Origin: a phage
Assembly (NCBI GenBank): GCA_018865545.1
Contig: GCA_018865545.1_3633.1
Reading direction: 5' to 3' (one strand)
DNA length: 64,000 nt
In this document: piece after piece, positions 17,186 to 42,065 of the stretch
How the letters are laid out: every line of letters begins with the position of its first letter
Position numbering within the stretch: position 1 is the stretch's first letter
Program-made: the position numbers and the translations under genes
Notes under the pieces: generated by a model
The model's database searches: none
What the model saw: the letters and a program-made list of their open reading frames with translations, nothing else
Told to the model about the DNA's origin: nothing

Positions 17186-18940
17186 TTATGGTTGTGGTCT
17201 ACGGACAATAACAGTGTCGATAACCCCACCTTCAACACCATTAAAGGTTAATTGAAGGATGGTGACTGAATTTGCTGTTGTATTAACAGTTTCACTGTTA
17301 AGGACAACATAATTAGGATCCAGAGTCACACTGTGCCCACCTGTGGCATCCTGCGTCAGATAAATCATAGCGGAGAAAGGTTGCTGTGGATCAGGCCATG
17401 CTCCGATTGTCAGATTTTTATTTACTGTGACATTATAAATGTTGGATGTGCCGCTTGGTGTCCATGTTGCTGTCGGATCGTCAACTTCTTCCGATTGTAA
17501 AGTTAGGAAACTTACATTGGTGGAAGAAAGTTGTGTCTGGCCGTTAACAAATAACTGATTTGTCGTTACACTGCTTTGAGCAGAAAGAGATGCTACGTTT
17601 ACGTTTTGTCCTGTCAAATCAAACGTAATACCAGATACAGTCCCCTTAACAATCAGGTTGTTTACTGTTGTTGTGCCAGAAGATCTATTTAAAGTCACAT
17701 CGCCATCAGATATTATCTTACCAAGGGTTGAAGTTCCGTTGACAGTTAGATCACCACCTACAGACCCGTCACCAGTCGCAGTGAATCCCTCCCCTAAAGT
17801 TAATAGCCCTGTGACATTACCAGTTGTAGAGGAGAAATCTTTGAGACTGGCTTGTCCATTAACAACAAGGTTGTTAGTAACTTCTAAGCTCTCACATGTT
17901 GTACTGTTGAGATTGGTGTTACCATTGACTTGTAAATCACCACCTACAGTAATCCCTTGTGCCGTTGTTACAGAATTAGGCGAGATATCTTCCCCATTGA
18001 CAGAAAAAGAAAGTCCTGTTACAGTACCTGTAATCTTTAAGTTTTCAAGTTCTGTTATCCCAGAAACTTTAAGACGAGCTTCAGAAGGGTCTTTTTTAGA
18101 GTTACCTGTAATGTAAACATAGTCGAAGGTATTATTACCAAGACCTGTGAAAGACATTGTTGTATTGTCTGCTACTGGCACACCGTTTATGATGATGTCT
18201 GTATGTAACTGATGTGTCTGCGCTGAGTATGCTTCAAGCCTTGTTTTTATAAACGTCGGGTTAGAATCATCACTGTAGGCAAAAGATAGACTTGAATTAT
18301 CTTTTGTTAAGATAAGATTCTGGAATTTTCCTGTTTGATTTTCAGCATTAACAGGCCCATTAAATGTTGACACACCGCCAACAGAAAGCGTATTAAGACT
18401 CGCTAAACCTGTTACAGTAAGATCCGCGAATGTACCGTTGCCACCCGCAATTCCAGCCAAAGCAGTAGCAATAGCTCTAGTAACGAATTGTGTTGTTGCC
18501 AGAGTTGTACTGTTACTATCCGCTGATGGTGTTGGTGCTTGAGGGTTCCCTGTAAAAATAGGGCTGTCAATAGGCGCAAATAGCTGAGACATAGATTCTG
18601 AATCGTTGTATAATCTCCAGTTAACATTATTGACTGGATTAGGAGGTAGTGTTACAGGCGAACTCTCTGTCGCACCGGGTGCATACCACCATTGGACACC
18701 TCTTTCCCCTGTATAGGCATACAACTGATTAAATACCGTCGTCTGTTGTCCAGCAACCCACGGCAGTGGAGGTGTTTTAAAGAATAAATTGTCAAGAAAT
18801 GCTTTTCTGACTGTAGGTATCAGACTGCCATCCTCTGTAACTACAGTTTCAGTAGCTGCCCCATTGACAACTTTATGAAGGCGTTCAGAATCTTCTACAA
18901 CCTGATCTACCGCCTGTTCAAATTTAGTCATGTCCGCCAC
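17186..18940 (-). CDS. Tail fiber protein
   Basis: 584 aa; SPIFTGNPQAPTPSADSNSTTLATTQFV motif shared with two other fiber ORFs; Gly/Thr/Asn/Val-rich repetitive body. Confidence 0.65.
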   Translation of the reverse strand: MADMTKFEQAVDQVVEDSERLHKVVNGAATETVVTEDGSLIPTVRKAFLDNLFFKTPPLPWVAGQQTTVFNQLYAYTGERGVQWWYAPGATESSPVTLPPNPVNNVNWRLYNDSESMSQLFAPIDSPIFTGNPQAPTPSADSNSTTLATTQFVTRAIATALAGIAGGNGTFADLTVTGLASLNTLSVGGVSTFNGPVNAENQTGKFQNLILTKDNSSLSFAYSDDSNPTFIKTRLEAYSAQTHQLHTDIIINGVPVADNTTMSFTGLGNNTFDYVYITGNSKKDPSEARLKVSGITELENLKITGTVTGLSFSVNGEDISPNSVTTAQGITVGGDLQVNGNTNLNSTTCESLEVTNNLVVNGQASLKDFSSTTGNVTGLLTLGEGFTATGDGSVGGDLTVNGTSTLGKIISDGDVTLNRSSGTTTVNNLIVKGTVSGITFDLTGQNVNVASLSAQSSVTTNQLFVNGQTQLSSTNVSFLTLQSEEVDDPTATWTPSGTSNIYNVTVNKNLTIGAWPDPQQPFSAMIYLTQDATGGHSVTLDPNYVVLNSETVNTTANSVTILQLTFNGVEGGVIDTVIVRRPQP

Positions 18941-18950
18941 AAGAATCTCC

Positions 18951-19214
18951 TTATTGGTCTGACTCTTCCCTACGTTGTGCTTCTACACCCCAGCGTAGAG
19001 ATATTAACTTACTTATTAACTGCGGGGCAGCTACTGTGGGGGCATACACCCACATATACCACTCCGTTAATGTGCCTTTGAAACCCCAATCCAAAAAAAC
19101 TGCTGTCATTGCAGCTAATCCGATATTGCTCCAAAATTTTGTGTGGGAGGCTTTCTCTGGATTTACTGGGGATCTGACAAGATCTTTTAAAAATTTCAAT
19201 ATTGATTTTATCAT
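18951..19214 (-). CDS. Hypothetical small membrane protein
   Basis: 87 aa, one hydrophobic segment (GLAAMTAVFLDWGF). Confidence 0.3.
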   Translation of the reverse strand: MIKSILKFLKDLVRSPVNPEKASHTKFWSNIGLAAMTAVFLDWGFKGTLTEWYMWVYAPTVAAPQLISKLISLRWGVEAQRREESDQ

Positions 19215-19229
19215 AATACATTAGAATCC

Positions 19230-19703
19230 TCAATAATTTACTCCAGGAACAATTCTGGCTATAATTATGAAACCAACAACAACAGAAGTTTTAAACAATT
19301 CTTTTATTGTACCTGTTTTGTATGCAGCGCATAATAAAAGAACTTCCATAAATGTTGGATATGATGAATTTATCGTGAAGCCTAATGCGTTCGGTAAAAT
19401 AAATGGGAACTGCATAATTAAAATTTGGCAAAACAAAACAGGTAGAGATAGTGCAAGCATTAGCTTTTTTCTCCATCCTGTCAAAACACATGCAGTAAAG
19501 AAAATCAGAGATATATCCAAAAACCAACAAAAAGTTAGGTAGAGTGATAAATCAAATGCGTAGATATGGGAACTGAACCACCAGTACAATATATTCTCTA
19601 TCAGGATATGAACCATGCCAAGTACTGACATGGTTCGGATACCTTTATCATTATCAAGAAGTAGCACTGCAAAGCATATAAAGTACAGTGCAGAACTTAT
19701 CAT
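19230..19703 (-). CDS. Hypothetical integral membrane protein
   Basis: 157 aa with about four hydrophobic helices. Confidence 0.4.
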   Translation of the reverse strand: MISSALYFICFAVLLLDNDKGIRTMSVLGMVHILIENILYWWFSSHIYAFDLSLYLTFCWFLDISLIFFTACVLTGWRKKLMLALSLPVLFCQILIMQFPFILPNALGFTINSSYPTFMEVLLLCAAYKTGTIKELFKTSVVVGFIIIARIVPGVNY

Positions 19704-20014
19704 TTCATTTGGCTCTCTATAAGAATTTTAAGCTGGTCTATAAGATCAACTCTCAAACTGCTTACATCCTCTTTTAAGTCTTTTCTAAAATCTGAAACAT
19801 CATCGCGGACAGCTTTCAGTTTTTTATCAAGAATCTCATCAAGTTTTTCTTTAGTGACCATTTCTGCCTTAATTCTTATGATGTCCCTATCAAGTTCATC
19901 AAGACGTTGTTGTGTCTTTTTATAGTCTGAGTATGTTAACTTCAGAACACCAACTAAGAAAAACGTCAATACGCCCCATACGGCTTTTAAGATAGCAAAT
20001 AGGTCAATAGACAT
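19700..20014 (-). CDS. Membrane-anchored coiled-coil protein
   Basis: 104 aa; N-terminal TM (FAILKAVWGVLTFFLVGVL) then charged coiled-coil region. Confidence 0.4.
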   Translation of the reverse strand: MSIDLFAILKAVWGVLTFFLVGVLKLTYSDYKKTQQRLDELDRDIIRIKAEMVTKEKLDEILDKKLKAVRDDVSDFRKDLKEDVSSLRVDLIDQLKILIESQMK

Positions 20015-20026
20015 TCCTTAGCTCCT

Positions 20027-20611
20027 TTACTCAACTGACGGTCTTATAGCCCATGTTATGTTAGGAGCATCCTCAGTTTTAATGCTTAATACCTCACAAC
20101 GATAAATCTTTAATTTCTTAAGAATATCTGCCATGTGCTCTGGTAGTTTTTTACCTGTTACCTGCTCATAGTCTTCATATGTCTGAATATATTGACTTGC
20201 CCATGCAATTTCCTTATCCTTGTGAAGTTTTGCCTCTTGTATAGATCGGAAATAGGTATAAACAAATTTGCCATCTTTTAATGCCACGTCACCGAGGTCA
20301 TACTCAATGCCTTTAGGCAAATTTTCTACCGGAACAACCGCTATTTTCCAGCCGCTGAAAGGAGTGCACCCATCAAAACCTTCATAGCAAACGCAGCAAA
20401 CCCTATCGTCGAGATCCAGCGAAAGAAAAGCATATTTCCCCGGCTCTGTTTGGGATTTCAATTCTTCGGCTATTTCATAATAGTCTTTCCCCGTAGATTC
20501 TTCATAGAAAAAAGGGGCGAAAGGGTTAGCTTCCAACAATCTTTTCGTAGCTCCTGTTGCATTATCAGGAAGTGGAGAATAAGGGAAAAATGGTCCAAAT
20601 ATTTTGTTCAT
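20027..20611 (-). CDS. Hypothetical protein
   Basis: 194 aa ORF. Confidence 0.45.
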   Translation of the reverse strand: MNKIFGPFFPYSPLPDNATGATKRLLEANPFAPFFYEESTGKDYYEIAEELKSQTEPGKYAFLSLDLDDRVCCVCYEGFDGCTPFSGWKIAVVPVENLPKGIEYDLGDVALKDGKFVYTYFRSIQEAKLHKDKEIAWASQYIQTYEDYEQVTGKKLPEHMADILKKLKIYRCEVLSIKTEDAPNITWAIRPSVE

Positions 20612-20628
20612 GCAACTCTCCTGAATGA

Positions 20629-21723
20629 TTAAACTCTACTTACGTTGTGCCAGACACCATTTACTTGTTTCTGGATATACGCATAGTAAACCCCACCAAT
20701 GTTGTCTGCTGAGTTTTTACCAACATCTTGAGGATAGATACCTGTCATAACTGCACCCGCTGGCGCTTGCCAGTTCCAAGATACTAGGTTACTACCAGGC
20801 CAGTACCATGTGTTACCTGTTAATCTAACATCTTGAACACCGCCAGTTTGGATATTAACATTGCCGTTACCATCCGCACCTACACCATTAACAGATCTTA
20901 CGATATTTCTCCCAGCAACCGTAGCAGAGTTATTATTTACAATTAACGCATTTACGTTTGCTGTTCCATTAACTCTTGCAGATGGTGTTGTTAATGAGCT
21001 TGTTGCTACAACAGTCTGACCTTGAATTTGCCCTGTAGCCGTCAAAGAGGATGTTCTTGTTGTGGTGAATGTTGCATTTGTGCCATTAACATTTGTTCCT
21101 TGTACAGTTCCTGTGGCAACAACATTTCCTGTTACTTTACACAAAGCCGCTGAGGAGCTAATAGCATTAAGCTCCATCATAGTGAACATCCCAGAGTTAC
21201 CTGAAGGAGAGAATCGGAAACGTATAGAATCTACACCGTTTGTCCCTGCTGTTCCCGGATTATCTCCAAGAACAAAATCCCAGTACGTCCAGTCAGAAGC
21301 CGGATTTGTAGTTGTAATATACGCAGTATCTGTTTCAGAAGGTTGAAAATTCAATCTCGGCAATGACAAAGCTCCTGTCATTGTATCTCCCGTTACATTC
21401 ACGTAACGGTTGTCGGCCTCTGATCTGCTCCACACATCAAGGTTGACTCTGGATGTTTCCTTGTCAGCTAAATCAGACAGATTTTCACTTCTTCTTAAAA
21501 ATCTTGTATCTAATTCAGGAATTTGATCCCCTGTAACATATTTTATCCAACTTGTCATCATATGAAGAACATAGTTAAATTCTTCACAAGCTGGTTTTTC
21601 TCCCATATCCCAACCTTTTAACCAAAGGTCGTCAATAGGTCTTATTTTATTCTCCCCGTGAGTATTAGGGAGAATTACATCCCCCGCTGCCCAAATCTCG
21701 ATTGGTATACTTGGTGTAGCCAT
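20629..21723 (-). CDS. Tail fiber / receptor-binding protein candidate
   Basis: 364 aa; Thr/Asn/Gly/Val-rich repetitive C-terminal half typical of fiber shafts. Confidence 0.45.
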   Translation of the reverse strand: MATPSIPIEIWAAGDVILPNTHGENKIRPIDDLWLKGWDMGEKPACEEFNYVLHMMTSWIKYVTGDQIPELDTRFLRRSENLSDLADKETSRVNLDVWSRSEADNRYVNVTGDTMTGALSLPRLNFQPSETDTAYITTTNPASDWTYWDFVLGDNPGTAGTNGVDSIRFRFSPSGNSGMFTMMELNAISSSAALCKVTGNVVATGTVQGTNVNGTNATFTTTRTSSLTATGQIQGQTVVATSSLTTPSARVNGTANVNALIVNNNSATVAGRNIVRSVNGVGADGNGNVNIQTGGVQDVRLTGNTWYWPGSNLVSWNWQAPAGAVMTGIYPQDVGKNSADNIGGVYYAYIQKQVNGVWHNVSRV

Positions 21724-21738
21724 AAAAGTATCTCCTTC

Positions 21739-23802
21739 TTAAACTTCTGGTGGGGTATCTTTTAAATACCCTTTCAATGCTGTATGCCCCATATGAAAGA
21801 CTGCGGATTGAGAGTTGTGCACTGTTATAGAATCATGCATTACTTGTGGATACGCCCATATGTATTGATAAATACCTGGAAACTTAAACTCATTAAGAAC
21901 GATGTTCCCTATAATCATTTTCCAAAGATATTCTCTATAATTAGAATTAGGGTCAAATCCGTATAATGGTGCTAGCCCTTCGTCTGGAACAAATCCTGCC
22001 AGATAATGTATCTTATCTTCTTTAAATTTTAAGACATCTCGCGGAATGGTGATGGCCTGGAATGATTTTTCCATTTTTCCTTGAAGTAACCAGTCATAGC
22101 ACTCGGAGCAATAAAAATCAAAATTCTCAGGTGTATAACTACCACTAGGGAAATTTATCTTTTCCATAATACCATTACCAATAATGGATGGTAAAAACGG
22201 TAAAAGTGTTATTTTTGCATTAGGATAAGATTTTTTAAGATCAGCACCGAATTTTACCACTCGCTCCCCTAAGCACTGTCTTAGAAAATCTACATACTCA
22301 TCATAGGGTGTTCCGGTCTTAAAGTCATAAATTGTTCCCATGTCTTGAGCATACAATCCAGTCTCTTCATTAAAACGAACTTTTGTAGTATAATCATAGA
22401 CACAAGGTAAGTTAGTAGCTGTATTATACCACCACCAAGGTTCTCCTATCTGAATGATAACAACTTGGTTAACTTGTTCGCACGTAGCTGCTATTTTATT
22501 TATCACACTTTGGATATATTGCATACCCTCATTAATATTAGGTGATAATACCCAACTAGGAGGTGTATAGCCTGTTTCAGCCAATGCATCATTCCAATCA
22601 TGCTGCACCCATTCTGCCGGACATACAGTGCTCATCAACTCAAAACTAATAGAATTGATAACCTTATAACCATTTGCTCGTGTCAGTGCGAAATAGTTAT
22701 TCATCCATTGTAGGGTTGCATTATTGACAGGGACATCTTTGTTCAGTTTCCATGCGGAGCTTTCCCAAGAGAACTCGTAATAATGCGACATACCATTATA
22801 GTGGTTTATCATATCCCTGTACCCAAGTTTCAAGCAGTTGTCCACCACTCGTTCAGGTGTCAGGTTATACATGTCATCATAGGATGTACACATACGCACA
22901 TCATGTGCAGGAATTGTCAAATTATTAACTCTCATCATTGTATAGCCTGTATCAGGCTCTTTAAGAGTTATTTTCAACATAAGGTTCTGATTTTCTTTAG
23001 GGACAACATCTTCTCCTTCTGCATACTTCTCAGATATCATAGAAAAGAAAAACTGATCCACTTGAGAGGTATCCACTGGCACGTTCACATCAGGGCCAGA
23101 TTTTAAATTTGAAAAATCAAGTTTGATTGTGGCTCTTTTATAATCCTCGCTGATATTTTCAGCATAAGCGTACAGAGGGATATAATGGGTCGCCCCATCT
23201 AAAAGTTTAAGGGTTAATGTCGGGGTCAATTTCTCATTATTGAAATCAGGCATTCCGTCGCCCAACTCTATATCGAACCACAGTTTAGCGTTTCGAAGAT
23301 CTGCGTGATCTTGAAAAGAGATCCCTTTATGATCATACTTATCTTTTGTGCTCCAAATAACCCCTGCTAAACCGCTTACAGTTCTATTAGTCATATAAGC
23401 TGTAAGTATATTACCATTAGATATTATAGAGCAACTTTCTGTGGGTTGAGAATCAATTGTCCAATATTTAGGTAGAAACATTTTCTCTTCTTTTGTTCCC
23501 CACCCCAACTCAGACATATCCTCCTTGGTGCTAATAACACATCTGGAAGCCAGCCTGTCTAGCCTTGCACCAAAAGACGGATTACTCATTTTTAAGGTAA
23601 ATTCTCTTGGTAATGAGTTTTTAGGATGTTGTTTTATCTCCACAGGTATCTGTACAGACTTTTCCCCTTTAGGAATTGTTGCCGTACCTACTTTGGGTGT
23701 ATAATCTCTTCCAGCAATAGCTGTGTTTGATATTGTTTCATAGTCAAAGCTGACAGCTACAGAGTCATCTTCTCTTCTGGCTGTGAAAATAGCCTCTGCC
23801 AT
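21739..23802 (-). CDS. Baseplate/tail protein with possible C-terminal hydrolase-like domain
   Basis: 687 aa; C-terminal region rich in Trp/Tyr with IIQIGEPWWWY (inferred glycoside-hydrolase-like signature, unverified). Confidence 0.4.
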   Translation of the reverse strand: MAEAIFTARREDDSVAVSFDYETISNTAIAGRDYTPKVGTATIPKGEKSVQIPVEIKQHPKNSLPREFTLKMSNPSFGARLDRLASRCVISTKEDMSELGWGTKEEKMFLPKYWTIDSQPTESCSIISNGNILTAYMTNRTVSGLAGVIWSTKDKYDHKGISFQDHADLRNAKLWFDIELGDGMPDFNNEKLTPTLTLKLLDGATHYIPLYAYAENISEDYKRATIKLDFSNLKSGPDVNVPVDTSQVDQFFFSMISEKYAEGEDVVPKENQNLMLKITLKEPDTGYTMMRVNNLTIPAHDVRMCTSYDDMYNLTPERVVDNCLKLGYRDMINHYNGMSHYYEFSWESSAWKLNKDVPVNNATLQWMNNYFALTRANGYKVINSISFELMSTVCPAEWVQHDWNDALAETGYTPPSWVLSPNINEGMQYIQSVINKIAATCEQVNQVVIIQIGEPWWWYNTATNLPCVYDYTTKVRFNEETGLYAQDMGTIYDFKTGTPYDEYVDFLRQCLGERVVKFGADLKKSYPNAKITLLPFLPSIIGNGIMEKINFPSGSYTPENFDFYCSECYDWLLQGKMEKSFQAITIPRDVLKFKEDKIHYLAGFVPDEGLAPLYGFDPNSNYREYLWKMIIGNIVLNEFKFPGIYQYIWAYPQVMHDSITVHNSQSAVFHMGHTALKGYLKDTPPEV

Positions 23803-23814
23803 ATGTGGTCTCCT

Positions 23815-24492
23815 CTACTCTGTTGCATCTACAGAAATATTGTCAACATAAATAAGGATGTCATCCGATGTTCTTGGTGGATCCGGTACGTAAACTAGAT
23901 GGGCTAAACCGCCATCCCCAGTTCTTGATTTCTCTGCCACAGATCCGAATCCAAGTGCATGTTTGTCATTCTTAAAGCCAAACGCCAAACCCACAGACTC
24001 TGTTAGTCTAAGGTGAGTTGGTAACGGTAATAGGTCAAGTATCTCATCTATCGCTGCTGCTAAGTCGAAACAGCTTTTCGATACGTTTACGTCAAAACGG
24101 TAATTATCCCCTTTGTAAGTTGTAAAATTTCCAACACCAAACAGTTGATCTAATGTTTCAATAAACTCTGGTCTTGTACCGTGTCTTGCAGATCCAGCAG
24201 CCAAGATCATTATTATTGCCCTATAGGTGGCATCATCAAGCCCGTTTCTCTCAATACCAACCTGATTACCTATCTCATCAAGATTCAGCCCTGCGGCATT
24301 CCTTAATAATCTACCTTCTGATAGCTTTACAAGCATCTCATCAATAGCTTTCAATCTTTCAAGGTATATTGTCAGAAATTTTACAAGATTCTTTTTCTCT
24401 TTCAGAAAATCACCAGGGAGATAATCAATACCTCCCTCAACGAAATCTGGCAGTGTGTGTATATGATTTACATCTTTTAAATAGTCTGCCAT
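23815..24492 (-). CDS. Baseplate protein (putative)
   Basis: 225 aa ORF immediately downstream of baseplate J-like gene. Confidence 0.4.
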   Translation of the reverse strand: MADYLKDVNHIHTLPDFVEGGIDYLPGDFLKEKKNLVKFLTIYLERLKAIDEMLVKLSEGRLLRNAAGLNLDEIGNQVGIERNGLDDATYRAIIMILAAGSARHGTRPEFIETLDQLFGVGNFTTYKGDNYRFDVNVSKSCFDLAAAIDEILDLLPLPTHLRLTESVGLAFGFKNDKHALGFGSVAEKSRTGDGGLAHLVYVPDPPRTSDDILIYVDNISVDATE

Positions 24493-24502
24493 AATAACAT
24501 CC

Positions 24503-25996: not shown

Positions 25997-26065
25997 GATT
26001 ATGCCTCCTCTTGTAAATTATTATAAGATGTGGTTATTTTACCACAATATGTCTTAATTATAAAT

Positions 26066-33195: not shown

Positions 33196-33230
33196 AGCTC
33201 TCAGGACAACTTTCGAAATATTAGACGGTG

Positions 33231-33764: not shown

Positions 33765-33773
33765 ACGAAATTA

Positions 33774-34247: not shown

Positions 34248-34250
34248 TTA

Positions 34251-35663: not shown

Positions 35664-35789
35664 CGATTTCCTCTTTTATTTCTGTACGTACAGTTATTGA
35701 CCAGCACTTATTTGTGCTGTGTTGTGGGTTATTTCTCCACATCGTGATCACCAATAAGCCAGTGCTTATCAATAACCAAAATATTTCTT

Positions 35790-36320
35790 TTAATCCTCTT
35801 TCGGAAAATGATATGAAAGTTGCGCATTGAGGGTTTCCAAATCTTCGAAAACTCCAGTGTCTGTTTCTGCAAAGCAAACATTAAAAGTTATCAGCACTAC
35901 AGCCCGAGTTTCATATTTTTGGACATTCAAAGGAACTCTCAACCGAGATATTGTTGAAGAGGAGGAATATGCAAAAGGTGAATTAGTTGGGAAATACTTA
36001 TCGTATATAAAAGGTAAGTTCATAGCTTGTAAAATACGACTTAGGGCATTTGGTGCTTTACCACGATAAGCAGTCAATGTATATACAATTTCATAGTTAT
36101 GAACTGTCATCGCTCGACCATCATCAGTAAATCCATCGTCTGATTGCCAGTCAAGCTGATCTACAGCAGTAAGATCCACTAGAATAAACTCACCATCAAC
36201 TTTAGGTATTTCATCTTCCCCTGCCAGCACGACTTTCCTACCAGTAACTTCTTTACAAAAAGAACCTATTGTTTTCGTCAAAGCATCGAAGATTTCATCT
36301 GTACTGATAAAATCAGTCAT
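35790..36320 (-). CDS. Neck / tail completion protein (putative)
   Basis: 176 aa ORF between head and sheath genes. Confidence 0.4.
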   Translation of the reverse strand: MTDFISTDEIFDALTKTIGSFCKEVTGRKVVLAGEDEIPKVDGEFILVDLTAVDQLDWQSDDGFTDDGRAMTVHNYEIVYTLTAYRGKAPNALSRILQAMNLPFIYDKYFPTNSPFAYSSSSTISRLRVPLNVQKYETRAVVLITFNVCFAETDTGVFEDLETLNAQLSYHFPKED

Positions 36321-36754
36321 TAAATACCTCCGTTTGTCCCTTCTGGTATTGCCACCACATAAGCTCTGAACCTAGAGACACCTGTGGTCTGATACAAATC
36401 AGATTTAATAACTGTGAACCACTCCATCTCACCACGAGAGTTCATTAATAGGATCTGATCAGCCATGTTATCAGACCCTTCAACTGGGCCTTTCAACATC
36501 ACAGATGAATACACAGTAAAGGAATCATACTGCCTACCACCTTCAGGAACTAATTGGGACGTATAATCCCTAGCTGCTTTACCACTAATAGGTTGAACGA
36601 CACATTCAGGTACATCAAATTCAACATACTCAATATCCAACCCACCATTTTCAAATGGATTATCTAAGTCTGTCTTTTTGAACTGTCTGTGTCTACCTTT
36701 CATGGTGACTCTGGGTATCAATTTGTTCTTGCCTATGAGTTTGTATCCCGCCAT
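36320..36754 (-). CDS. Neck / head-tail connector protein (putative)
   Basis: 144 aa ORF, start-stop overlap with neighbour. Confidence 0.4.
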   Translation of the reverse strand: MAGYKLIGKNKLIPRVTMKGRHRQFKKTDLDNPFENGGLDIEYVEFDVPECVVQPISGKAARDYTSQLVPEGGRQYDSFTVYSSVMLKGPVEGSDNMADQILLMNSRGEMEWFTVIKSDLYQTTGVSRFRAYVVAIPEGTNGGI

Positions 36755-36757
36755 AAT

Positions 36758-37234
36758 TTACGCCCCTGAACCTCTTCTGTTCGAAATTTTATAAGTTGTG
36801 GAATCTCTTAAATCCCCATAATGATACATAGCTGCGCTAAAACCTTTGACATCTGCCCATGCATCTGATACAGTATTATGAGGGAAAAGACCAGAGTCTA
36901 TTACAAACTTAATTTTTTCAGCACCTGCTTTACCAATTTTTTTCAGCATTGGGGTTGGATTATTACTTCCAGATGCTAACGTGCCGAATAACTCCTTCTG
37001 TAATTTCTCCAAATCCTTTTGAAAGGACACAGCCGCGCTAGTTATGAATGTACGGGCTGGAAGATTATTCCAGCCTTGTTCATGGATAGCTGCCAGAGTT
37101 GCAGTATTTAGTCCTGAATAGTGTGGGTCATCATAATAACCATAGGAGACTTGTTTTTTATCAAGTTGCTGTACAGAGTTATAAAAATTCTCCAAAGCAC
37201 TTAAATCTTGATGAGATTTAAATTTTGTTCTCAT
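36758..37234 (-). CDS. Head-tail connector protein (putative)
   Basis: 158 aa ORF in neck cluster. Confidence 0.4.
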   Translation of the reverse strand: MRTKFKSHQDLSALENFYNSVQQLDKKQVSYGYYDDPHYSGLNTATLAAIHEQGWNNLPARTFITSAAVSFQKDLEKLQKELFGTLASGSNNPTPMLKKIGKAGAEKIKFVIDSGLFPHNTVSDAWADVKGFSAAMYHYGDLRDSTTYKISNRRGSGA

Positions 37235-37299
37235 AAGAACTCCCGTTAAGGTATTTTACCACATTATCCAAGCAAAATCAATAATTAGGAATACGATTG

Positions 37300-37818
37300 T
37301 CAATAATACCTGTGTTTTGGGTATCTCCGAGGAATACCGGGAACTCCTGTTTGAGGAACTATACCGGAAACATCAAACGGGCTTCTTGAGTTAGGATTAC
37401 TCTTAACACGCCAAAACTCATCCTGTCGCACACCGCCCACAATAACCAAACCAGAGACACCATTCAGGCAGCTATTGACGTAATCAGGGTTTTGCAGTAG
37501 CCAGTCCAGAAAATCTTTCCAGTTCTGATAGGAAGATCCACCTTTTACCTGTATCGTCTCATCACCTATCTTTTCCAATCTTTCTGTGATGGATGCCTCG
37601 CCAGAATTTATCTCTTGAAGAATTAACCATCTTAATACAGCCACCATTGTGTTATAGACCACTTTCCACATGTCGCAAGGCGTGGATGATGGGTTAGGCC
37701 AGTTTGCTCTTTTTTTCTCTATCTCAAGGAATGCCATGATAACTTCATCAGGTAGTGCCTCTGGGGATATTGACCCAAGCAGGAGCCTGATGTAATCAAC
37801 AATTTCTTGGTCTGTCAT
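37300..37818 (-). CDS. Head-tail connector / head completion protein (putative)
   Basis: 172 aa ORF in neck cluster. Confidence 0.4.
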   Translation of the reverse strand: MTDQEIVDYIRLLLGSISPEALPDEVIMAFLEIEKKRANWPNPSSTPCDMWKVVYNTMVAVLRWLILQEINSGEASITERLEKIGDETIQVKGGSSYQNWKDFLDWLLQNPDYVNSCLNGVSGLVIVGGVRQDEFWRVKSNPNSRSPFDVSGIVPQTGVPGIPRRYPKHRYY

Positions 37819-37890
37819 CTAACTCTCCATTTTATGTTACTTGTCAGTAACTATATTATCACAAAATACAATTTTTGTCATTAAAAACGC

Positions 37891-37918
37891 TTGACACGAA
37901 AAATTCCGTAGGTAAGAT
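37891..37918 (+). promoter_or_regulatory. Sigma70-like promoter candidate (TTGACA-N16-TAAGAT)
   Basis: ttgaca 37891-37896, 16 nt spacer, taagat 37913-37918, upstream of plus-strand ORF 37946. Confidence 0.45.
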
Positions 37919-37945
37919 AAACACAACAATTGCTATGGAGGATTT

Positions 37946-38350
37946 ATGAAAAATATTTTAAAAATTACAATTGGTCTGTGCGTCTGTGCTGTTATTGCAG
38001 CGGGAACTCTCCAATATGTGAAAAAGAACCCAGATATTAATGATTATAAATCTGTCGAGGCAAGTTGGTTGTCGCCAGAAGAAAAAGATGAGGCAATTAG
38101 CCGTATTGTACAATTATCTTGCGATAAGAGATTCAGAGAAGCATTTAAACCAGGCGTTATTGTTGTGTCATCAGGTTTCGAGGGTAGGATAGCAGAACAG
38201 GCGGAAGCATATCAATATTTTGATGATGTCGCAATTATCTCAGGAAAACAATCTTACACTGGAAAATACATCTGCACTTTTTACAAAGATGGGCGGGAAG
38301 TGTATATTAATGCAAACTTGGATAAAGGAGTGCAAGGAATCCTAAAATAA
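37946..38350 (+). CDS. Secreted or membrane-anchored small protein on opposite strand inside the late module
   Basis: 134 aa; N-terminal hydrophobic segment ILKITIGLCVCAVIAAGTL; own promoter candidate and terminator; AT-rich; convergent with flanking tail genes. Confidence 0.5.
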   Translation: MKNILKITIGLCVCAVIAAGTLQYVKKNPDINDYKSVEASWLSPEEKDEAISRIVQLSCDKRFREAFKPGVIVVSSGFEGRIAEQAEAYQYFDDVAIISGKQSYTGKYICTFYKDGREVYINANLDKGVQGILK

Positions 38351-38372
38351 AAGACCCCGAAGGGTCTTTTTA
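38351..38372. terminator. Bidirectional rho-independent terminator
   Basis: agacccc-gaag-gggtct hairpin flanked by A-run and T-run, between convergent genes. Confidence 0.6.
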
Positions 38373-38630
38373 TCACGACATAATACCAGCGGCTTTCAAT
38401 TTGGCAAGCAAAGCATTAAAATCGTTGACCAACGTAGAGACATCTGAAGCCACAGAATCTGCTTGTGTTTGTGCTTTCTTAACACCTCCTAATACTGATT
38501 CCGTAGCCGCTGGAAGAACATAGCTATCTGAGCCTCCAGCAACAATATCTTCGATTTTCACAGATTTTCCAGTTTTTATATCAATAAGGCTTGATGCATA
38601 TACTTTACCTGCTACGCCATTTGTTGCCAT
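38373..38630 (-). CDS. Small protein paralogous to tail fiber N-terminal domain
   Basis: 85 aa; GVAGKVYASSLIDIKTGKSVKIEDIVAGG parallels the N-terminus of ORF 40815-42065 (GVGGLIYGRALVDQKTGKKINFDELGGG). Confidence 0.45.
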   Translation of the reverse strand: MATNGVAGKVYASSLIDIKTGKSVKIEDIVAGGSDSYVLPAATESVLGGVKKAQTQADSVASDVSTLVNDFNALLAKLKAAGIMS

Positions 38631-38641
38631 ATTTTCTCCTT

Positions 38642-40252
38642 TTAACTTGTGTAACTATATTGAACAACATAGTTAAATTCATGTGAGGCTTCATCAGCAC
38701 CTGCTTCGGGTATTACTCCAGCTAACCCAGAATTACCAGCCCCACGAAGAAGTTTCTTGATTTCCTTTGTCTCAGGGTCGATGGTATGCGTGGGAACTGT
38801 TGGTAGAATAAGCCATACAGCCACTGTAGGTTTCTCTGATCCGACAACCTTGGGGTATTCTGCATAGATATCGTAATCAAGATATGTACCATCTTCCATA
38901 CAAGGTAGTTCTCTCAAGCGAACATCTGTAATAACATTTGTGCTGCCAGCAGGCGCGCTATACAGGGTGACTGTTGTTTTCAAATATATAGAAGACCCAG
39001 ACCTCCCTACCGCTTTATCAGCCGAAGGTGTATCTCTATAATTGAAAGAAAAATTCCCAGATGTTGCTGACAACCTCATAGACGGCTGAGGGGAAAATGG
39101 GATATTAAAGCTCGCTTGTTGACTTGAATCATCTGTCATTGTAAAAGTTAGTGTAACCTGTTGTGCGTTATCAACTTCTTTCACAACAGCATTAACAGAT
39201 TTTATTGTTTGACCATCAGGTGCTTTTGGTATTCCCAAATTTAAGACCTGTGATGGTGATTGACCAGTTATTTCAATAGTAGGTTGTGATCCACTATCTA
39301 AAACAGTAACTGTGCCAGCAGACAGTGTGTAAGCATTATCAGAGATCTGCTTTTTAACAAATTCTACGTTGGCAATCTGGGTTCCTATTGCTGAGTCACT
39401 TGGTGTCGGGCTTTGTGGTGTACCAGTGAACACAGGGCCATCAAGATCTGCCTTAAGGGAGATAAGACGTTTTAGTCCTTCAACATCAACCTTCAGGTTT
39501 TCCCATCCGATGAGATAACCACTACCAGTTGTATGATAACGGTTGTACCAAAAATCCCCGTTAACACCGAAAAAGAATATCCCTTTCTCTTCGTATTGTG
39601 GACCAGAACTGTTCCGTGATGTACTAATATATTTTATTTCGATAAGTCCGTTGAATACCACTCCTGGAATTATTTTATCTTCCCCTGCCAATTGTGATAC
39701 TTGGTAAACCCCTGGTGTTGCTGCTCTAACCCATGTTAAGAACTCTGATGTTCCAGAGTTGCCACTAAAATTTTTTGTACTAGTGAGTATTGCTCCAAAA
39801 CCAAACGCACCAGGTATAGCGGCAACACCTTCTGTACGATCATAAAGCCATTCTTGTACTTTAGTAGGTGCAACATACAACCCCTCTTCACCTTCAGAAG
39901 TTAGATTTGTTAAAGTATTTCCTTCTTTAGGAGATATAGGGATATTTATTTCGGGCGCTGTTACATATAATGCCCCTTGTTTCAACTCCAACAGGTTATT
40001 TGCAGCAGGGCTAACCTTAACAGCTAACCCATTATCTCCAGCTTGGAGAGCATTATTTTCATCTTCTGCCACCACAACAACACCTTTAAGTGGTGTTGCT
40101 TTTTCACCATTACCTGAAAGTTTTATGGTCGCGGTGTCTTCTGTGTATAATTTAAAAGATTGGCTTGGGAGTCCTGATCCTCCAATACTATGCCCATCTG
40201 GAAGTATGACTTCAGCATTGACAACTTTATCCTTATAATCCATAACTACCAC
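38642..40252 (-). CDS. Tail fiber protein
   Basis: 536 aa; GPVFTGTPQSPTPSDSAIGTQIANVEFV motif shared with ORFs 17186-18940 and 40815-42065. Confidence 0.6.
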   Translation of the reverse strand: MVVMDYKDKVVNAEVILPDGHSIGGSGLPSQSFKLYTEDTATIKLSGNGEKATPLKGVVVVAEDENNALQAGDNGLAVKVSPAANNLLELKQGALYVTAPEINIPISPKEGNTLTNLTSEGEEGLYVAPTKVQEWLYDRTEGVAAIPGAFGFGAILTSTKNFSGNSGTSEFLTWVRAATPGVYQVSQLAGEDKIIPGVVFNGLIEIKYISTSRNSSGPQYEEKGIFFFGVNGDFWYNRYHTTGSGYLIGWENLKVDVEGLKRLISLKADLDGPVFTGTPQSPTPSDSAIGTQIANVEFVKKQISDNAYTLSAGTVTVLDSGSQPTIEITGQSPSQVLNLGIPKAPDGQTIKSVNAVVKEVDNAQQVTLTFTMTDDSSQQASFNIPFSPQPSMRLSATSGNFSFNYRDTPSADKAVGRSGSSIYLKTTVTLYSAPAGSTNVITDVRLRELPCMEDGTYLDYDIYAEYPKVVGSEKPTVAVWLILPTVPTHTIDPETKEIKKLLRGAGNSGLAGVIPEAGADEASHEFNYVVQYSYTS

Positions 40253-40818
40253 CCAATTTTTATCCTTTGTAATTCCTCAACCGTAGAGGCTGAAAGCACT
40301 TGATCTTTCATTTCTCGTTGCTTGATGTATATTGAATCATTCTTAGTTGCCAACTCGGAAGACATAGCCACAACAAGATTTTCAAATTCAGAGTTACTCA
40401 TCTCTACAGGTTTGTTATCAACATCTCTCCAAACCACAGCTTGTCTAGCCGAGGATGCTTTTTGTGCTAATAATACTGGATAAATACGACCAAGGGTTGC
40501 ATTATTGACATCATACCTTGCACCATTATAAGAAACAATAGCTGTAGAGCTTTCTTCCAGTTTTCTCCACTCTTTTATTTCTGATAACATCTGTTGCTTT
40601 AATGCCTCGATAAATTGAGGGTTTACTACATACGGGGCAATCTCCCCAAAATTACCAGATTGTAAGGAATCCCAAACTGCCTTTCCTGTTTCGCTACAGT
40701 CGTTGCTGGAAGCGGTGTATGGGAGATAATCAGAGAAACCCTCAAAAAGGACGAGGCAATCAACGTCACCATTAAGAAGATACTGTGGAGACTTGATAGC
40801 TTTAATATCTAGCATCAT
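40246..40818 (-). CDS. Hypothetical protein between tail fiber genes (possible fiber assembly factor)
   Basis: 190 aa ORF overlapping both neighbours by a few nt. Confidence 0.4.
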   Translation of the reverse strand: MMLDIKAIKSPQYLLNGDVDCLVLFEGFSDYLPYTASSNDCSETGKAVWDSLQSGNFGEIAPYVVNPQFIEALKQQMLSEIKEWRKLEESSTAIVSYNGARYDVNNATLGRIYPVLLAQKASSARQAVVWRDVDNKPVEMSNSEFENLVVAMSSELATKNDSIYIKQREMKDQVLSASTVEELQRIKIGW

Positions 40819-42065
40819 GCAATCCTCATAAAAAGGCCAATATAACCTGTATCAGTACCATTTCTATTGCTTGGTGAACCGGATAAGGCTATAAACGTAC
40901 CTCTCTGTGTTTCAGTACTGTGTGTAACAGAAACTGGTGTACTTTGATATGCACCTGTTGCGGAAACATTGCTATAAAGCGTTATACACCCTATGCGGGA
41001 ACCTGGGATAGTCTGACCACGAACAAGTTTTCTGTTTGAATCACTATCCGACTCGCCAAGATACACTCCTAACATTATTCCTCCAACATCAGGACTCCCC
41101 CAAGAATTGCCTACCGTAGACTGCAAAGAAGAGAATTGCCCTTTTATATTCACCCAGTCACCATTGGCAAAAATAGTCAGTAAGCGATAAAGGTACAACT
41201 CCCCATTTATGCCATAAAAATAGGCATGTTTACTATTTTTTGCTGCCTGCTCTGCATTCTCTGCTGGATATGGTGACAATACCTCAACCATACCTCTAAA
41301 AGTGATCCCTTCAATAATACGTGTACCACCTGAAGGTAAATCTTGGCGAACAAGGTAACGACCAGGTTGTGCACTTCTCAACCAAGAAACCCATTCCTCT
41401 GGCCCATTCTTCTCTTGAAAAACAACTTCTTTCTCGGCAGGGATAAACGCCCCAAAACCAAATGCCCCTGGTAAAGATACTACCCCATCGGTGGCATCAT
41501 AGATATCGTTTTGTACATCTTTTGTAGCGGCGGTTTTTATCCCCAGATAATCAAGAACCCCAGTTTTTGAGTCTTGCCCTATAATAACTCGACCAACAGC
41601 GGAGAGATTTGCCAAAGCCATTACGTTTTTGTCACTGAAATAAGCTAGTTTATTTCCAGCAGTAATCAATCCTGACAAAGATGTCAGTATTTCACTCAAT
41701 GGTTGTTTACCCGCAAGCGCGTTAGTCATGGTGGTCGCAAAGTTAGGGTCATCACCTAATGCCTTCGCCAATTCATTGAGAGTATCTAATGTTTCAGGCG
41801 CTGAGTCAGCCAATTTTGCAATTAAACCCCTCACATATTCTACATTAGCTATTTCCTTTCCAATAGCATCATCCAACGGTGTTGGTGCTTGAGGGTTCCC
41901 TGTAAATGAAGGGCTTTCTATTGGGGCTTTAGATGCAATAAGATCTGTTATATCTTCTGGAATATTCCCGCCACCCAGTTCATCAAAATTTATTTTCTTT
42001 CCTGTCTTCTGGTCAACCAATGCACGACCATAAATTAAACCACCAACACCTGTTGTTGCTGTCAT
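40815..42065 (-). CDS. Tail fiber protein
   Basis: 416 aa; SPSFTGNPQAPTPLDDAIGKEIANVEYV motif; shares ...PGAFGFGA... segment with 38642-40252. Confidence 0.6.
   Translation of the reverse strand: MTATTGVGGLIYGRALVDQKTGKKINFDELGGGNIPEDITDLIASKAPIESPSFTGNPQAPTPLDDAIGKEIANVEYVRGLIAKLADSAPETLDTLNELAKALGDDPNFATTMTNALAGKQPLSEILTSLSGLITAGNKLAYFSDKNVMALANLSAVGRVIIGQDSKTGVLDYLGIKTAATKDVQNDIYDATDGVVSLPGAFGFGAFIPAEKEVVFQEKNGPEEWVSWLRSAQPGRYLVRQDLPSGGTRIIEGITFRGMVEVLSPYPAENAEQAAKNSKHAYFYGINGELYLYRLLTIFANGDWVNIKGQFSSLQSTVGNSWGSPDVGGIMLGVYLGESDSDSNRKLVRGQTIPGSRIGCITLYSNVSATGAYQSTPVSVTHSTETQRGTFIALSGSPSNRNGTDTGYIGLFMRIA

What the first reader, a model, noticed from the sequence alone, without database searches (positions are those of the whole stretch)
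17186..42065. Three tail fiber genes share a conserved SPxFTGxPxxPTP module, plus a small N-domain paralog
ORFs 17186-18940, 38642-40252 and 40815-42065 each contain a near-identical segment (SPIFTGNPQAPTPS / GPVFTGTPQSPTPS / SPSFTGNPQAPTPL followed by a short conserved helix-like stretch) but otherwise differ. The 85 aa ORF 38373-38630 duplicates the N-terminus of 40815-42065. This suggests modular fiber genes built on a common attachment domain with different distal receptor-binding parts, and possibly more than one receptor specificity.
Basis: seen in the sequence. Interest (0 to 1): 0.4.

Follow-up and report, generated by a model that had tools for sequence, protein, structure and literature searches.

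The report
Shared joint in mosaic phage fibres
Three fibre genes of an rV5-like E. coli phage do share a short conserved segment, but it is a widespread joint and gene-swapping point of phage fibres, not an attachment domain; the more interesting point is that one of them looks like a prophage tail-fibre tip grafted onto the anchor of a small head-fibre protein.

Summary
The window is an Avunavirus-like (Vequintavirinae) E. coli myophage. The motif is real: P.F[TS]G.P..PTP occurs exactly three times in six frames (about 1e-5 expected), inside a ~45-residue unit (motif plus helix) in A584, B536 and C416.

It is not a common attachment domain. It lies at residues 126, 272 and 51, and each protein has a different N-terminus:
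- A584 is the orthologue of the phiTE long tail fibre (PDB 9CUY). There the unit lies distal to the baseplate anchor.
- B536 shares its N-domain with collagen-like fibres encoded at the same locus in Seuna- and Certreviruses.
- C416 shares its first ~33 residues with the 85-aa ORF.

The unit marks module borders. C416 residues 39-416 plus the DUF4376 gene E190 form a cassette shared with lambda-Stf/P2-H-type prophage fibres. B536 136-304 is 75% identical to an E. coli O157 prophage fibre, and that similarity ends at the unit. Relatives carry C/B hybrids crossed over there.

The 85-aa ORF is a phi29/crAss001/B2-type head-fibre protein. Its N-terminal anchor heads 16 protein clusters with varied tips, those checked map between the capsid and adaptor genes, and it weakly resembles the phiTE capsid 'Pagoda' protein. 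Capsid display of C416 is inferred, not shown.

The parts
17186..18940 (-). A584: long tail fibre, orthologue of phiTE phiTE_241 (the LTF; PDB 9CUY chain g)
   Evidence: phmmer against PDB E 2.8e-86. 33% identity over 496 aa to phiTE_241. Same gene order as phiTE (short fibre, assembly protein, membrane proteins, LTF). 97.6% identical to Av-05 gp105.
18461..18598 (-). Unit A: SPIFTGNPQAPTPS motif plus following helix (A584 residues 115-160)
   Evidence: Unit profile E 1e-23. Aligns to phiTE LTF residues 130-162, inside the modelled part 14-171.
38373..38630 (-). D85: small head-fibre-type protein. Residues 1-33 are the N-terminal anchor (38532-38630); residues 28-85 are the phi29/crAss001/B2-type trimeric C-domain (38376-38549).
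   Evidence: Pfam PF11133 E 3e-17. PDB hits to phi29 gp8.5, crAss001 gp21 and B2 Dec gp45, E about 1e-9. Conserved full-length in Seuna-, Mydo- and Avunavirus at the same position.
38642..40252 (-). B536: mosaic fibre (probable start at 40243). In order: N-domain, X domain, motif unit, then an unassigned beta-strand-rich distal half and tip.
39866..40243 (-). B536 N-terminal domain (residues 4-129), specific to this locus
   Evidence: 53% identity to the N-terminus of the collagen-like SSE121 gp019 (E 1e-29). E 3e-7 to the Certrevirus collagen-like fibre that corresponds to phiTE_215.
39530..39883 (-). X domain of B536 (residues 124-241)
   Evidence: 37% identity to C416 175-297 (E 1e-20). B536 136-304 (most of X plus the unit) is 75% identical to E. 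coli O157 prophage fibre P0143 residues 192-360. AF2 pLDDT 74-88 for residues ~160-260.
39335..39475 (-). Unit B: GPVFTGTPQSPTPS motif plus helix (B536 residues 260-306)
   Evidence: Unit profile E 8e-26. DNA similarity to Av-05 resumes at 39430, inside the motif. Similarity to the prophage fibre ends at residue 304.
40246..40818 (-). E190: DUF4376 protein, partner and probable assembly factor of the C416 distal part
   Evidence: Pfam PF14301 E 3.4e-11. 38-39% identical to the DUF4376 genes directly downstream of prophage fibres P0019 and P0012. Its start overlaps the stop of C416.
40815..42065 (-). C416: chimeric fibre. In order: head-fibre-type anchor, motif unit, helical DSAPETLDTLNEL...DPNFATT segment, X domain, tip.
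41967..42065 (-). N-terminal anchor of C416 (residues 1-33), shared with D85
41808..41951 (-). Unit C: SPSFTGNPQAPTPL motif plus helix (C416 residues 39-86)
   Evidence: Unit profile E 6e-26. Homology to prophage fibres starts here, at residues 39-42. A 29-nt exact match with unit A lies at 41878-41906 and 18528-18556.
41700..41810 (-). Helical segment DSAPETLDTLNELAKALGDDPNFATT...AGKQPL (C416 residues 86-122)
   Evidence: 50 nt at 94% identity to P2-like and lambdoid prophage tail-fibre genes. PDB hit 9D93 'tail collar fibers gp4', E 5e-12. AF2 predicts helices at 91-102 and 107-118.
40818..41543 (-). C416 X domain (41175-41543) and C-terminal tip (40818-41174)
42093..43747 (-). Context: major capsid protein (42734-43747) and the conserved 169-aa gene F169 (42093-42602) that precede the fibre locus
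   Evidence: PF03864 and PF26097 in the homologous locus L012.
37300..38350 (.). Context: antisense membrane-protein gene (37946-38350, + strand) and the head-tail adaptor gene (37300-37818, - strand) that close the locus
   Evidence: PF26075 Phage_Adaptor_PhiTE in the homologous locus L012.

Best explanation
The shared segment is a ~45-residue structural unit: ..AP(L/I)xSPxFTGxPxxPTP.., about 10 variable residues, then an amphipathic helix IAxxx(F/Y)V(R/K)xxI. It serves as an internal joint of trimeric phage fibres, and at gene level it is a border at which fibre modules are exchanged. It is not a virion-attachment domain.

The three proteins are attached through three different N-termini.

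(i) A584 is the baseplate long tail fibre, the orthologue of the phiTE LTF. Its N-terminal helical bundle and globular domain make the attachment, and the unit comes after them.

(ii) B536 carries an N-domain conserved in the fibres encoded between the capsid and neck genes of Avuna-, Seuna- and Certreviruses. This is followed by an 'X domain + unit' block recently shared with P2-H-type E. coli prophage fibres, and then its own distal half.

(iii) C416 is a graft. The ~33-residue anchor of the small head-fibre protein D85 is joined, at the unit, to the whole distal part of a lambda-Stf/P2-H-type prophage fibre. That distal part was imported together with its DUF4376 partner gene E190.

Shown: the homologies, the module borders, the hybrids in related phages, and the locus conservation.

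Inferred: that the D85/C416 anchor binds the capsid, probably at hexamer centres, so that C416 would be a capsid-displayed receptor-binding fibre (about 0.5). Also inferred: that the different tips give several receptor specificities.
For: The motif is real and occurs exactly three times.

Different N-termini:
- A584 matches 9CUY_g at E 2.8e-86, and its unit aligns to LTF residues 130-162. PMC11972413 describes the LTF as an N-terminal helical bundle bound to wedge and sheath-initiator proteins, then a globular domain, a short beta-helix and a short helical bundle.
- B536 residues 3-129 are 53% identical to the N-terminus of SSE121 gp019.
- C416 residues 1-33 match the head-fibre N-terminus.

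Module borders at the unit:
- C416 39-416 is 53% identical to Salmonella fibre P0019 (PF08400 N-terminus). C416 42-415 is 46% identical to E. coli fibre P0012 (PF12571 N-terminus). Both homologies start at the unit.
- P0012 itself has the order X1, unit, helix, X2, tip. B536 112-304 is colinear with its X1+unit part (E 3e-39), which explains the apparently swapped domain order in B536 and C416.
- B536 136-304 is 75% identical to O157 prophage fibre P0143 192-360, and the similarity stops after the unit helix.
- DNA similarity to Av-05 breaks between 39430 and 39800 and resumes inside the motif. The 19-1-2 homologue lacks the unit.
- P0153 is the C416 anchor joined at the unit to the B536 distal part. 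P0009 is a C/B hybrid that replaces the whole C416-E190-B536 array in a related contig.
- P0037 keeps C416 residues 1-120 and has a different tip.
- The cassette: DUF4376 genes follow P0019 and P0012 and are 38-39% identical to E190.

Anchor as a module:
- A profile of the two anchors finds 16 representative proteins in 1.84e9. In all of them the match is at residues 1-38, and their lengths range from 62 to 587 aa.
- Their distal parts include a head-fibre knob, collagen-like repeats, an Sf6 needle knob (PF16532), tandem units and B536-type tips.
- The three that were looked up (P0009, P0161, P0154) map downstream of the capsid gene and F169. In the two contigs that continue as phage DNA they lie before the head-fibre and adaptor genes.

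Capsid link:
- The D85 C-domain occurs in three experimentally capsid-bound proteins: phi29 gp8.5, crAss001 gp21 and B2 gp45. B2 gp45 is a 99-aa homotrimer at quasi-sixfold axes (PMC11654681).
- phiTE_217, assigned to hexamer-centre 'Pagoda' density, occupies the same gene position as D85. Its N-terminus matches the anchor profile: 16 bits, E 6.6e-4 among 1,115 ORFs; hhalign 91.9%, P 7e-7.
Against: - No structure of the unit was inspected directly. Mapping it to 'short beta-helix + helical bundle' relies on the order of elements in the paper's text.
- The AF2 monomer models give low confidence for the unit in both C416 and B536.
- The capsid location of D85 and C416 is indirect. The conserved C-domain is the distal knob in phi29, not the capsid-binding part.
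- The N-termini of the crAss001 and B2-type proteins do not resemble the anchor.
- The Pagoda assignment in phiTE rests on mass-spectrometry abundance alone, and no PHROG family links the anchor to phiTE_217.
- The attachment site of the B536 N-domain is unknown.
- DNA identity between units B and C is only ~59%, so present-day homologous recombination between them within this genome is unlikely. The hybrids may have arisen between more similar alleles.
Confidence: 0.75

Rival explanations
1. One reading: the SPxFTGxPxxPTP segment is a common attachment domain that docks three tail fibres to the same kind of site, with different receptor-binding parts beyond it.
For: The segment is the only piece shared by all three proteins, and in A584 and C416 it lies in the N-terminal third. 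Distal parts do differ.
Against: It lies at residue 272 of 536 in B536, behind a 130-residue conserved N-domain and an X domain. [quoted passage not shown] Prophage fibres carry the unit behind the PF08400 or PF12571 anchor domains, and some proteins carry two or three copies in tandem (P0009, P0154).
Confidence: 0.05
2. The mosaic reading holds, but the D85/C416 anchor and the B536 N-domain dock to the neck or to the tail (collar or whisker-like fibres, or side fibres on the baseplate or sheath), not to the capsid. D85 would then be a small whisker or cap rather than a head decoration.
For: Whisker and collar genes also lie near capsid genes in the related Felixounavirus Bas63 (PMC12609058). 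The C416 helical segment matches 'tail collar fibers gp4' of PDB 9D93. RBPseg found only three of nine annotated fibres at the baseplate of two Vequintavirinae, and proposed a neck location for a different fibre class (PMC12143355). The phiTE paper mentions an unplaced 'third putative fibre' contacted by the LTF. The link from the anchor to Pagoda is weak.
Against: The phiTE connector is described with portal, adaptor, head-completion and terminator rings only, and no collar. All three solved proteins with the D85 C-domain are capsid-bound. phiTE_217 was the fifth most abundant virion protein, which fits a capsid copy number better than a neck one.
Confidence: 0.3
3. The three units are similar through structural convergence or ancient common descent of fibre shafts. 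They play no role in module exchange, and the coincidence of breakpoints with the unit is chance.
For: Units B and C are only ~59% identical in DNA. Short conserved trimerisation motifs can persist under purifying selection alone.
Against: Independent comparisons place a border in or next to the unit: the starts of the P0019 and P0012 homologies, the end of the P0143 homology, the Av-05 DNA breakpoint, and the P0153 crossover. The P0009 hybrid switches in the adjoining X domain. The 75% protein identity to a prophage fibre ending there indicates recent transfer. Units A and C share a 29-nt exact match.
Confidence: 0.1
4. C416, E190 and B536 are dispensable or decaying acquisitions (morons or pseudogene-like cargo) that are not assembled into virions.
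For: Av-05 RefSeq splits the B536 homologue into two ORFs. Several database relatives are truncated fragments (P0153, P0156, P0157, P0159, P0168-P0171). rV5 and Mydovirus do without any long fibre at this locus.
Against: The ORFs are intact and tightly coupled inside the late structural operon. They are conserved at 91-95% in several isolates. The Certrevirus counterparts of this locus (CB7_10, CB7_11, CB7_12) were detected in virions by mass spectrometry (PMC7344957).
Confidence: 0.05

Closest known systems
Mosaic tail-fibre genes of enterobacterial phages (P2 gpH, lambda Stf, Mu S, P1 S, T-even gp37), with short conserved boxes between exchangeable segments. From my own recollection: Haggard-Ljungquist et al. 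1992 and Sandmeier et al. 1992/1994; not re-read here.
   Same: Conserved short segments flank divergent modules. C416 and B536 share long stretches with fibres that carry PF08400 (Stf-type) or PF12571 (gpH-type) N-termini, and C416 is followed by the same DUF4376 partner gene.
   Different: The window proteins lack both known N-terminal anchor domains. They sit in a lytic Vequintavirinae genome next to the capsid gene, on other anchors.
Long tail fibre of Pectobacterium phage phiTE (phiTE_241; PDB 9CUY/9MJN; PMC11972413)
   Same: A584 is homologous over its whole length (E 2.8e-86), including the N-terminal part that forms the 'rip-cord' bundle and the unit at LTF residues 130-162. The gene neighbourhood is the same.
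   Different: A584 is 584 aa against 793 aa, so its beta-helical shaft is shorter. The hosts differ, and the receptor may too (phiTE is flagellotropic).
Head-fibre and decoration proteins with the phi29 gp8.5 C-terminal domain: phi29 gp8.5 (3QC7, 6QVK), crAss001 gp21 (7QOF), Shigella phage B2 gp45 (9D82; a 99-aa homotrimer at quasi-sixfold axes, PMC11654681)
   Same: D85 has the same C-terminal domain (E 1e-9 to 1e-8) and the same small size as gp21 and gp45.
   Different: Its N-terminus is unrelated to theirs. It lacks the gp8.5 base and helix-turn-helix shaft. Its location on the virion is untested.
phiTE 'Pagoda' protein pTE217, a hexamer-centre capsid decoration assigned by mass-spectrometry abundance (PMC11972413)
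   Same: Same gene position as D85: the last gene of the head block before the adaptor. Its N-terminal residues 9-40 resemble the anchor (hhalign 91.9%).
   Different: It is 164 aa with a different, unassigned C-terminal part. The similarity is short and weak, and the protein was not modelled in the map.
Capsid-borne adhesins: T4 Hoc, Bas63 Hex-Dec, the head fibres of phage 7-7-1, and the phiCbK head filament
   Same: If C416 is on the capsid it would work like these, giving reversible first contact with the cell surface through a capsid appendage (PMC12609058; PMC12796354).
   Different: Those carry Ig-like or filament domains. None is described, in the papers read here, as carrying a lambda-Stf/P2-H-type tail-fibre tip with its own DUF4376 partner.

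Membership tests
phiTE-type baseplate long tail fibre (Vequintavirinae LTF) | Full-length sequence homology to the solved LTF, including the N-terminal region modelled at the baseplate | tested here: met
   A584 against 9CUY_g: E 2.8e-86, residues 8-469 aligned to 16-498, plus the C-terminal stretch.
phiTE-type baseplate long tail fibre (Vequintavirinae LTF) | Conserved position downstream of the baseplate wedge, short fibre, assembly-protein and small membrane-protein genes | tested here: met
   Window order P497, O225, N687, M364, L194, K104, J157, I87, A584 against phiTE_234 to phiTE_241.
phiTE-type baseplate long tail fibre (Vequintavirinae LTF) | Physical attachment to wedge and sheath-initiator proteins through the N-terminal helical bundle | not testable with these tools
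   Needs a virion structure.
lambda-Stf / P2-gpH type prophage tail fibres | N-terminal anchor domain PF08400 (phage_tail_N) or PF12571 (Phage_tail_fib) | tested here: not met
   No Pfam hit at E <= 0.1 in B536 or C416. The homologues P0019, P0012 and P0143 have these domains.
lambda-Stf / P2-gpH type prophage tail fibres | Homologous shaft and tip region | tested here: met
   C416 39-416 is 53% identical to P0019 and C416 42-415 is 46% identical to P0012. B536 136-304 is 75% identical to P0143.
lambda-Stf / P2-gpH type prophage tail fibres | Partner gene immediately downstream (here the DUF4376 type) | tested here: met
   E190 is PF14301. DUF4376 genes follow P0019 and P0012 and are 38-39% identical to E190. 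B536 has no such partner.
Pfam PF03406 Phage_fiber_2 (phage tail fibre repeat) | Match to the PF03406 profile over the shared segment | tested here: not met
   No hit in A584, B536 or C416. In P0019, PF03406 covers residues 189-228, just upstream of the SPAFTG motif. The unit is therefore a different, unnamed element.
phi29-type head fibre (Pfam PF11133 Phage_head_fibr) | Score above the Pfam gathering threshold | tested here: met
   D85 scores 63.4 bits against a cut-off of 24.6, but only over profile positions 212-277 of 277.
phi29-type head fibre (Pfam PF11133 Phage_head_fibr) | gp8.5-type capsid-binding base and helix-turn-helix shaft | tested here: not met
   D85 is 85 aa. Residues 1-27 do not align to gp8.5.
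phi29-type head fibre (Pfam PF11133 Phage_head_fibr) | Location on the capsid | not testable with these tools
   Indirect only: three solved relatives of the C-domain are capsid-bound, and there is synteny plus weak similarity to phiTE pTE217.
Vequintavirinae head-locus anchor family (defined here) | ~33-residue N-terminal module M(T)ATxGVxGxxYxxxLxDxxTGxxxxxxxx at residue 1, encoded between the capsid and adaptor genes | tested here: met
   D85 and C416. 16 representative proteins, all matching at residues 1-38. The locus was checked in the window and in L012, L015 and L016.
Collagen-like fibres of the capsid-neck locus (SSE121 gp019, GAP31 gp203, phiTE_215 / CB7_10) | Shared N-terminal domain | tested here: met
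   B536 3-129 against SSE121 gp019 1-124: 53% identity, E 1e-29. Certrevirus p008: E 3e-7.
Collagen-like fibres of the capsid-neck locus (SSE121 gp019, GAP31 gp203, phiTE_215 / CB7_10) | Collagen G-X-Y repeats | tested here: not met
   No PF01391 hit in B536. SSE121 gp019 has it at E 1e-34.

The most novel reading that the evidence does not exclude
Avunaviruses display on their capsid, at the sites normally occupied by a small trimeric head-fibre knob (D85), a complete lambda-Stf/P2-H-type receptor-binding fibre (C416, folded with its own DUF4376 partner E190). Relatives would display collagen-like fibres, Sf6-knob fibres or B536-type tips on the same ~33-residue anchor. The capsid-neck locus would then be a second, plug-and-play host-recognition module, separate from the baseplate. 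It would exchange tips with prophage tail fibres through the SPxFTG unit.
Probability: 0.45. Interest if true: 0.65.

Novelty: new variant of a known kind. Interest (0 to 1): 0.42.

Why it matters
The motif on its own is ordinary. It is one more case of conserved linkers in mosaic phage fibres, and it should not be read as an attachment domain.

Three things are useful.

(1) There is now a precise module map of three fibres of a broad-host-range phage group. It shows where natural crossovers occur: at the unit, and after the DPNFATT helix. Those are the obvious fusion points for engineering host range.

(2) A lytic myovirus exchanges fibre parts with resident E. coli and Salmonella prophages, with up to 75% protein identity.

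(3) There is a testable lead that Vequintavirinae carry a second recognition module on the head. A 33-residue anchor shared by a head-fibre knob and by fibres with tail-fibre tips could explain why only some of the many annotated 'tail fibres' of these phages are seen at the baseplate. It would also give a short tag for displaying proteins on these virions.

Tried and rejected
- **Circular permutation of B536 against C416** (X then unit, versus unit then X). Rejected: prophage fibre P0012 has X1, unit, helix, X2, tip, and the two window proteins match different parts of that one architecture.
- **The unit as Pfam PF03406.** Rejected.
- **Structure prediction.** The C416 monomer model is good only for residues ~210-416. 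The B536 model is poor, with mean pLDDT 43. Neither model resolves the unit.
- **Third homologue search, with the B536 N-domain alone.** It returned only four fragments.
- **PHROG scan of the isolated anchors.** It gave no family and no link to phiTE_217.
- **The first anchor profile** (five head-fibre sequences) did not detect phiTE_217. Only the broader profiles did, and weakly.
- **Promoter and terminator scan of 37800-43900.** No more sites than in shuffled sequence.
- **Literature search for the motif as a text string.** Nothing relevant was found.
- **The phiTE paper's supplementary files.** They are not held, so the identity of its 'third putative fibre' could not be checked.
- **The 29-nt A/C repeat.** It is not spread among other viral contigs.

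Full report
**What the window is.** The region is about 95% identical at DNA level to Escherichia phages 24-2-1, 18-1-2 and Av-05 (genus Avunavirus, Vequintavirinae). It matches Seunavirus, Mydovirus and Certrevirus genomes more distantly. From about 16.4 kb onward the structural genes run on the minus strand. I use these names:
- A584 = 17186-18940
- B536 = 38642-40252
- C416 = 40815-42065
- D85 = 38373-38630
- E190 = 40246-40818
- F169 = 42093-42602
- major capsid protein = 42734-43747

**Check of the observation.**
- The pattern P.F[TS]G.P..PTP occurs three times in the six-frame translation, against 9e-6 expected.
- A profile of the 47-residue unit finds only these three ORFs (E 1e-23 to 6e-26; next best 0.19).
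- Pairwise E-values are 4e-9, 7e-8 and 7.5e-11.

Two corrections are needed. First, B536 and C416 also share a ~120-residue domain X (37% identity, E 1e-20). Second, D85 resembles C416 only over its first ~33 residues (43% identity; an independent profile gives 28.8 bits). The rest of D85 is the C-terminal domain of phi29-type head fibres (Pfam PF11133, 63 bits).

**A584.** It is homologous along its whole length to the long tail fibre of Pectobacterium phage phiTE (PDB 9CUY chain g, E 2.8e-86). It lies in the same gene order: baseplate wedge, baseplate protein, short fibre, assembly protein, small membrane proteins, then the long fibre.

The phiTE paper describes the fibre as an N-terminal helical bundle joined by a helix of the sheath initiator, then a globular domain, a short beta-helix and a short helical bundle. 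Residues 14-171 were modelled (PMC11972413). The A584 unit aligns to LTF residues 130-162. By order of elements, that places it in the last two features and not in the attachment site. This mapping is an inference from the text, because I could not inspect coordinates.

**C416.**
- From residues 39-42 to the end it is 46-53% identical to the distal parts of Salmonella and E. coli prophage fibres. Their N-termini are the lambda-Stf-type PF08400 or the P2-gpH-type PF12571 domain. The homology begins at the unit.
- Those prophage genes are followed directly by a DUF4376 gene of 187-190 aa that is 38-39% identical to E190. E190 is itself DUF4376, and its start overlaps the stop of C416. The distal part of C416 plus E190 is therefore a two-gene cassette shared with prophages.
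- A 50-nt stretch (41701-41750) is 94% identical to P2-like and lambdoid tail-fibre genes.
- The relative P0037 keeps residues 1-120 nearly unchanged but has a different tip.

**B536.**
- Residues 3-129 are 53% identical to the N-terminus of the 918-aa collagen-like protein gp019 of Seunavirus SSE121. They are more weakly similar to the Certrevirus collagen-like fibre that corresponds to phiTE_215 and CB7_10. That protein is a virion component by mass spectrometry (PMC7344957).
- Residues 136-304 (X plus unit) are 75% identical to an E. coli O157 prophage fibre with a P2-gpH-type N-terminus. The similarity stops just after the unit helix.
- Residues 112-304 are colinear with the first X domain and unit of P0012, whose order is X1, unit, helix, X2, tip. 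This removes the apparent permutation: B536 and C416 match different parts of one parental architecture.
- At DNA level the window and Av-05 diverge between 39430 and 39800, and similarity resumes inside the motif. The 19-1-2 homologue lacks the unit altogether.

**The unit as a crossover point.**
- Database relatives include P0153, which is the C416 anchor joined within the unit to the B536 distal half.
- P0009 is C416 up to its X domain, followed by a second unit and the B536 distal half. In its contig, P0009 is the only long gene between F169 and the head-fibre gene. It replaces C416, E190 and B536.
- P0154 has three tandem units.
- PHROG hits to the unit alone come from six different tail-fibre families.
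- Units A and C share a 29-nt exact match (18528-18556 and 41878-41906). Units B and C are only ~59% identical in DNA.

I conclude that the unit is a conserved fibre joint that doubles as a module border. That conserved boxes in tail-fibre genes mediate exchange is established knowledge that I recall from the P2, Mu, P1 and lambda literature and did not re-read here.

**The locus and the real shared anchor.** Between the capsid gene and the adaptor gene, the gene content varies by genus:

| Genus or phage | Genes between capsid/F169 and adaptor |
|---|---|
| rV5 | no fibre |
| Mydovirus | only a 99-aa head-fibre gene |
| Seunaviruses | collagen-like fibre, 214-aa gene, head-fibre gene |
| Certreviruses | collagen-like fibre, 216-aa gene, phiTE_217 |
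| Avunaviruses | C416, E190, B536, D85 |

A profile of the D85 and C416 N-termini, searched against 1.84e9 representative proteins, found 16 true members. All of them match at residues 1-38, and their lengths range from 62 to 587 aa. Their distal parts are a head-fibre knob, collagen-like repeats, an Sf6-type needle knob, tandem units or B536-type tips. The three that I looked up map to this same locus. This, and not the motif, is the 'common attachment domain with different distal parts'.

**Where the anchor binds.**
- The D85 C-domain is found in phi29 gp8.5, crAss001 gp21 and Shigella phage B2 gp45. All three are capsid-bound. B2 gp45 is a 99-aa homotrimer at quasi-sixfold axes (PMC11654681). 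Their N-termini differ from the anchor, as expected if each lineage has its own capsid-binding part.
- phiTE_217 was assigned by abundance to unmodelled 'Pagoda' density at hexamer centres. It occupies the position of D85, and its residues 9-40 match the anchor profile: 16 bits, E 6.6e-4 among 1,115 ORFs, with the next hit at E 3.4; hhalign 91.9%, P 7e-7.
- The phiTE connector shows no collar.

I therefore think capsid display of D85 and C416 is the likeliest reading, at about 0.5. It is an inference. A neck or tail location, as for the whiskers of Bas63, is the main rival.

**Verdict.** The attachment-domain interpretation is not supported. The modular-fibre idea is right in a different form. 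The motif itself is ordinary. The head-fibre anchor carrying tail-fibre tips is a modestly novel and testable variant.

Noticed in passing
window 16303-17168: The ORF downstream of A584 (16536-17168, 210 aa) corresponds only to the N-terminal ~200 residues (59% identity) of Av-05 gp106. That is a 647-aa tail protein with Ig-like domains and a weak, sub-threshold SASA-type esterase match. The rest is missing here, and 16303-16572 has no counterpart in Av-05.
   Followed up: partly
window 18528-18556 and 41878-41906: A 29-nt exact direct repeat (TTTACAGGGAACCCTCAAGCACCAACACC) encodes FTGNPQAPTP in both A584 and C416, 23 kb apart. This suggests gene conversion or a recent common source. In the viral contig collection it was found only in an Av-05-length contig.
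   Followed up: partly
L012 6001-7764 (Logan SRR30025518 contig): A related phage has a single 587-aa hybrid (P0009: the N-terminal part of C416 plus the distal half of B536) in place of the three genes C416, E190 and B536. So the DUF4376 partner and the B536-type N-domain are dispensable in that arrangement.
   Followed up: yes
L015 5001-6083 (Logan ERR11042395 contig): A Seunavirus-like contig encodes, just before its head-fibre gene, a 360-aa protein with the same anchor, collagen repeats and an Sf6-type tail-needle knob (PF16532).
   Followed up: partly
L001 6621-8589 (Av-05 gp78/gp79) and NC_025830.1 about 114.1 kb: In the Av-05 reference record the B536 homologue is split into two ORFs (545 + 115 aa; a frameshift or a sequencing error). 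The F169 gene lies about 70 kb away from the fibre genes, unlike in the window and in the 18-1-2-type genomes.
   Followed up: no
L004 6001-6390 and L005 6001-6300: The head-fibre homologues of GAP31 (129 aa) and BIS47 (99 aa) carry an inserted WADITGKPxTF(A/P)P segment between the anchor and the knob. I recall that sequence as another repeat typical of tail fibres; this was not tested here.
   Followed up: no
window 37946-38350 (+): A 134-aa membrane-protein gene lies antisense between the head-fibre gene and the adaptor gene. It is conserved in this position in Avuna-, Seuna- and Mydoviruses and annotated inconsistently ('adenosine deaminase' in some records).
   Followed up: no
window 42093-42602: F169, the gene directly after the capsid gene, is conserved across all Vequintavirinae genera sampled. 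In precomputed annotation it matches Pfam PF26097 (Phage_Inh_N), and it also hits a PHROG named 'minor head protein inhibitor of protease'. Its role in this locus is unclear.
   Followed up: no
L016 7294-11155 (ENA ERZ27280404 contig): The contig carrying P0154 and its DUF4376 partner continues directly into bacterial genes (Usp, porin, pyruvate:ferredoxin oxidoreductase). It is probably a chimeric assembly.
   Followed up: no
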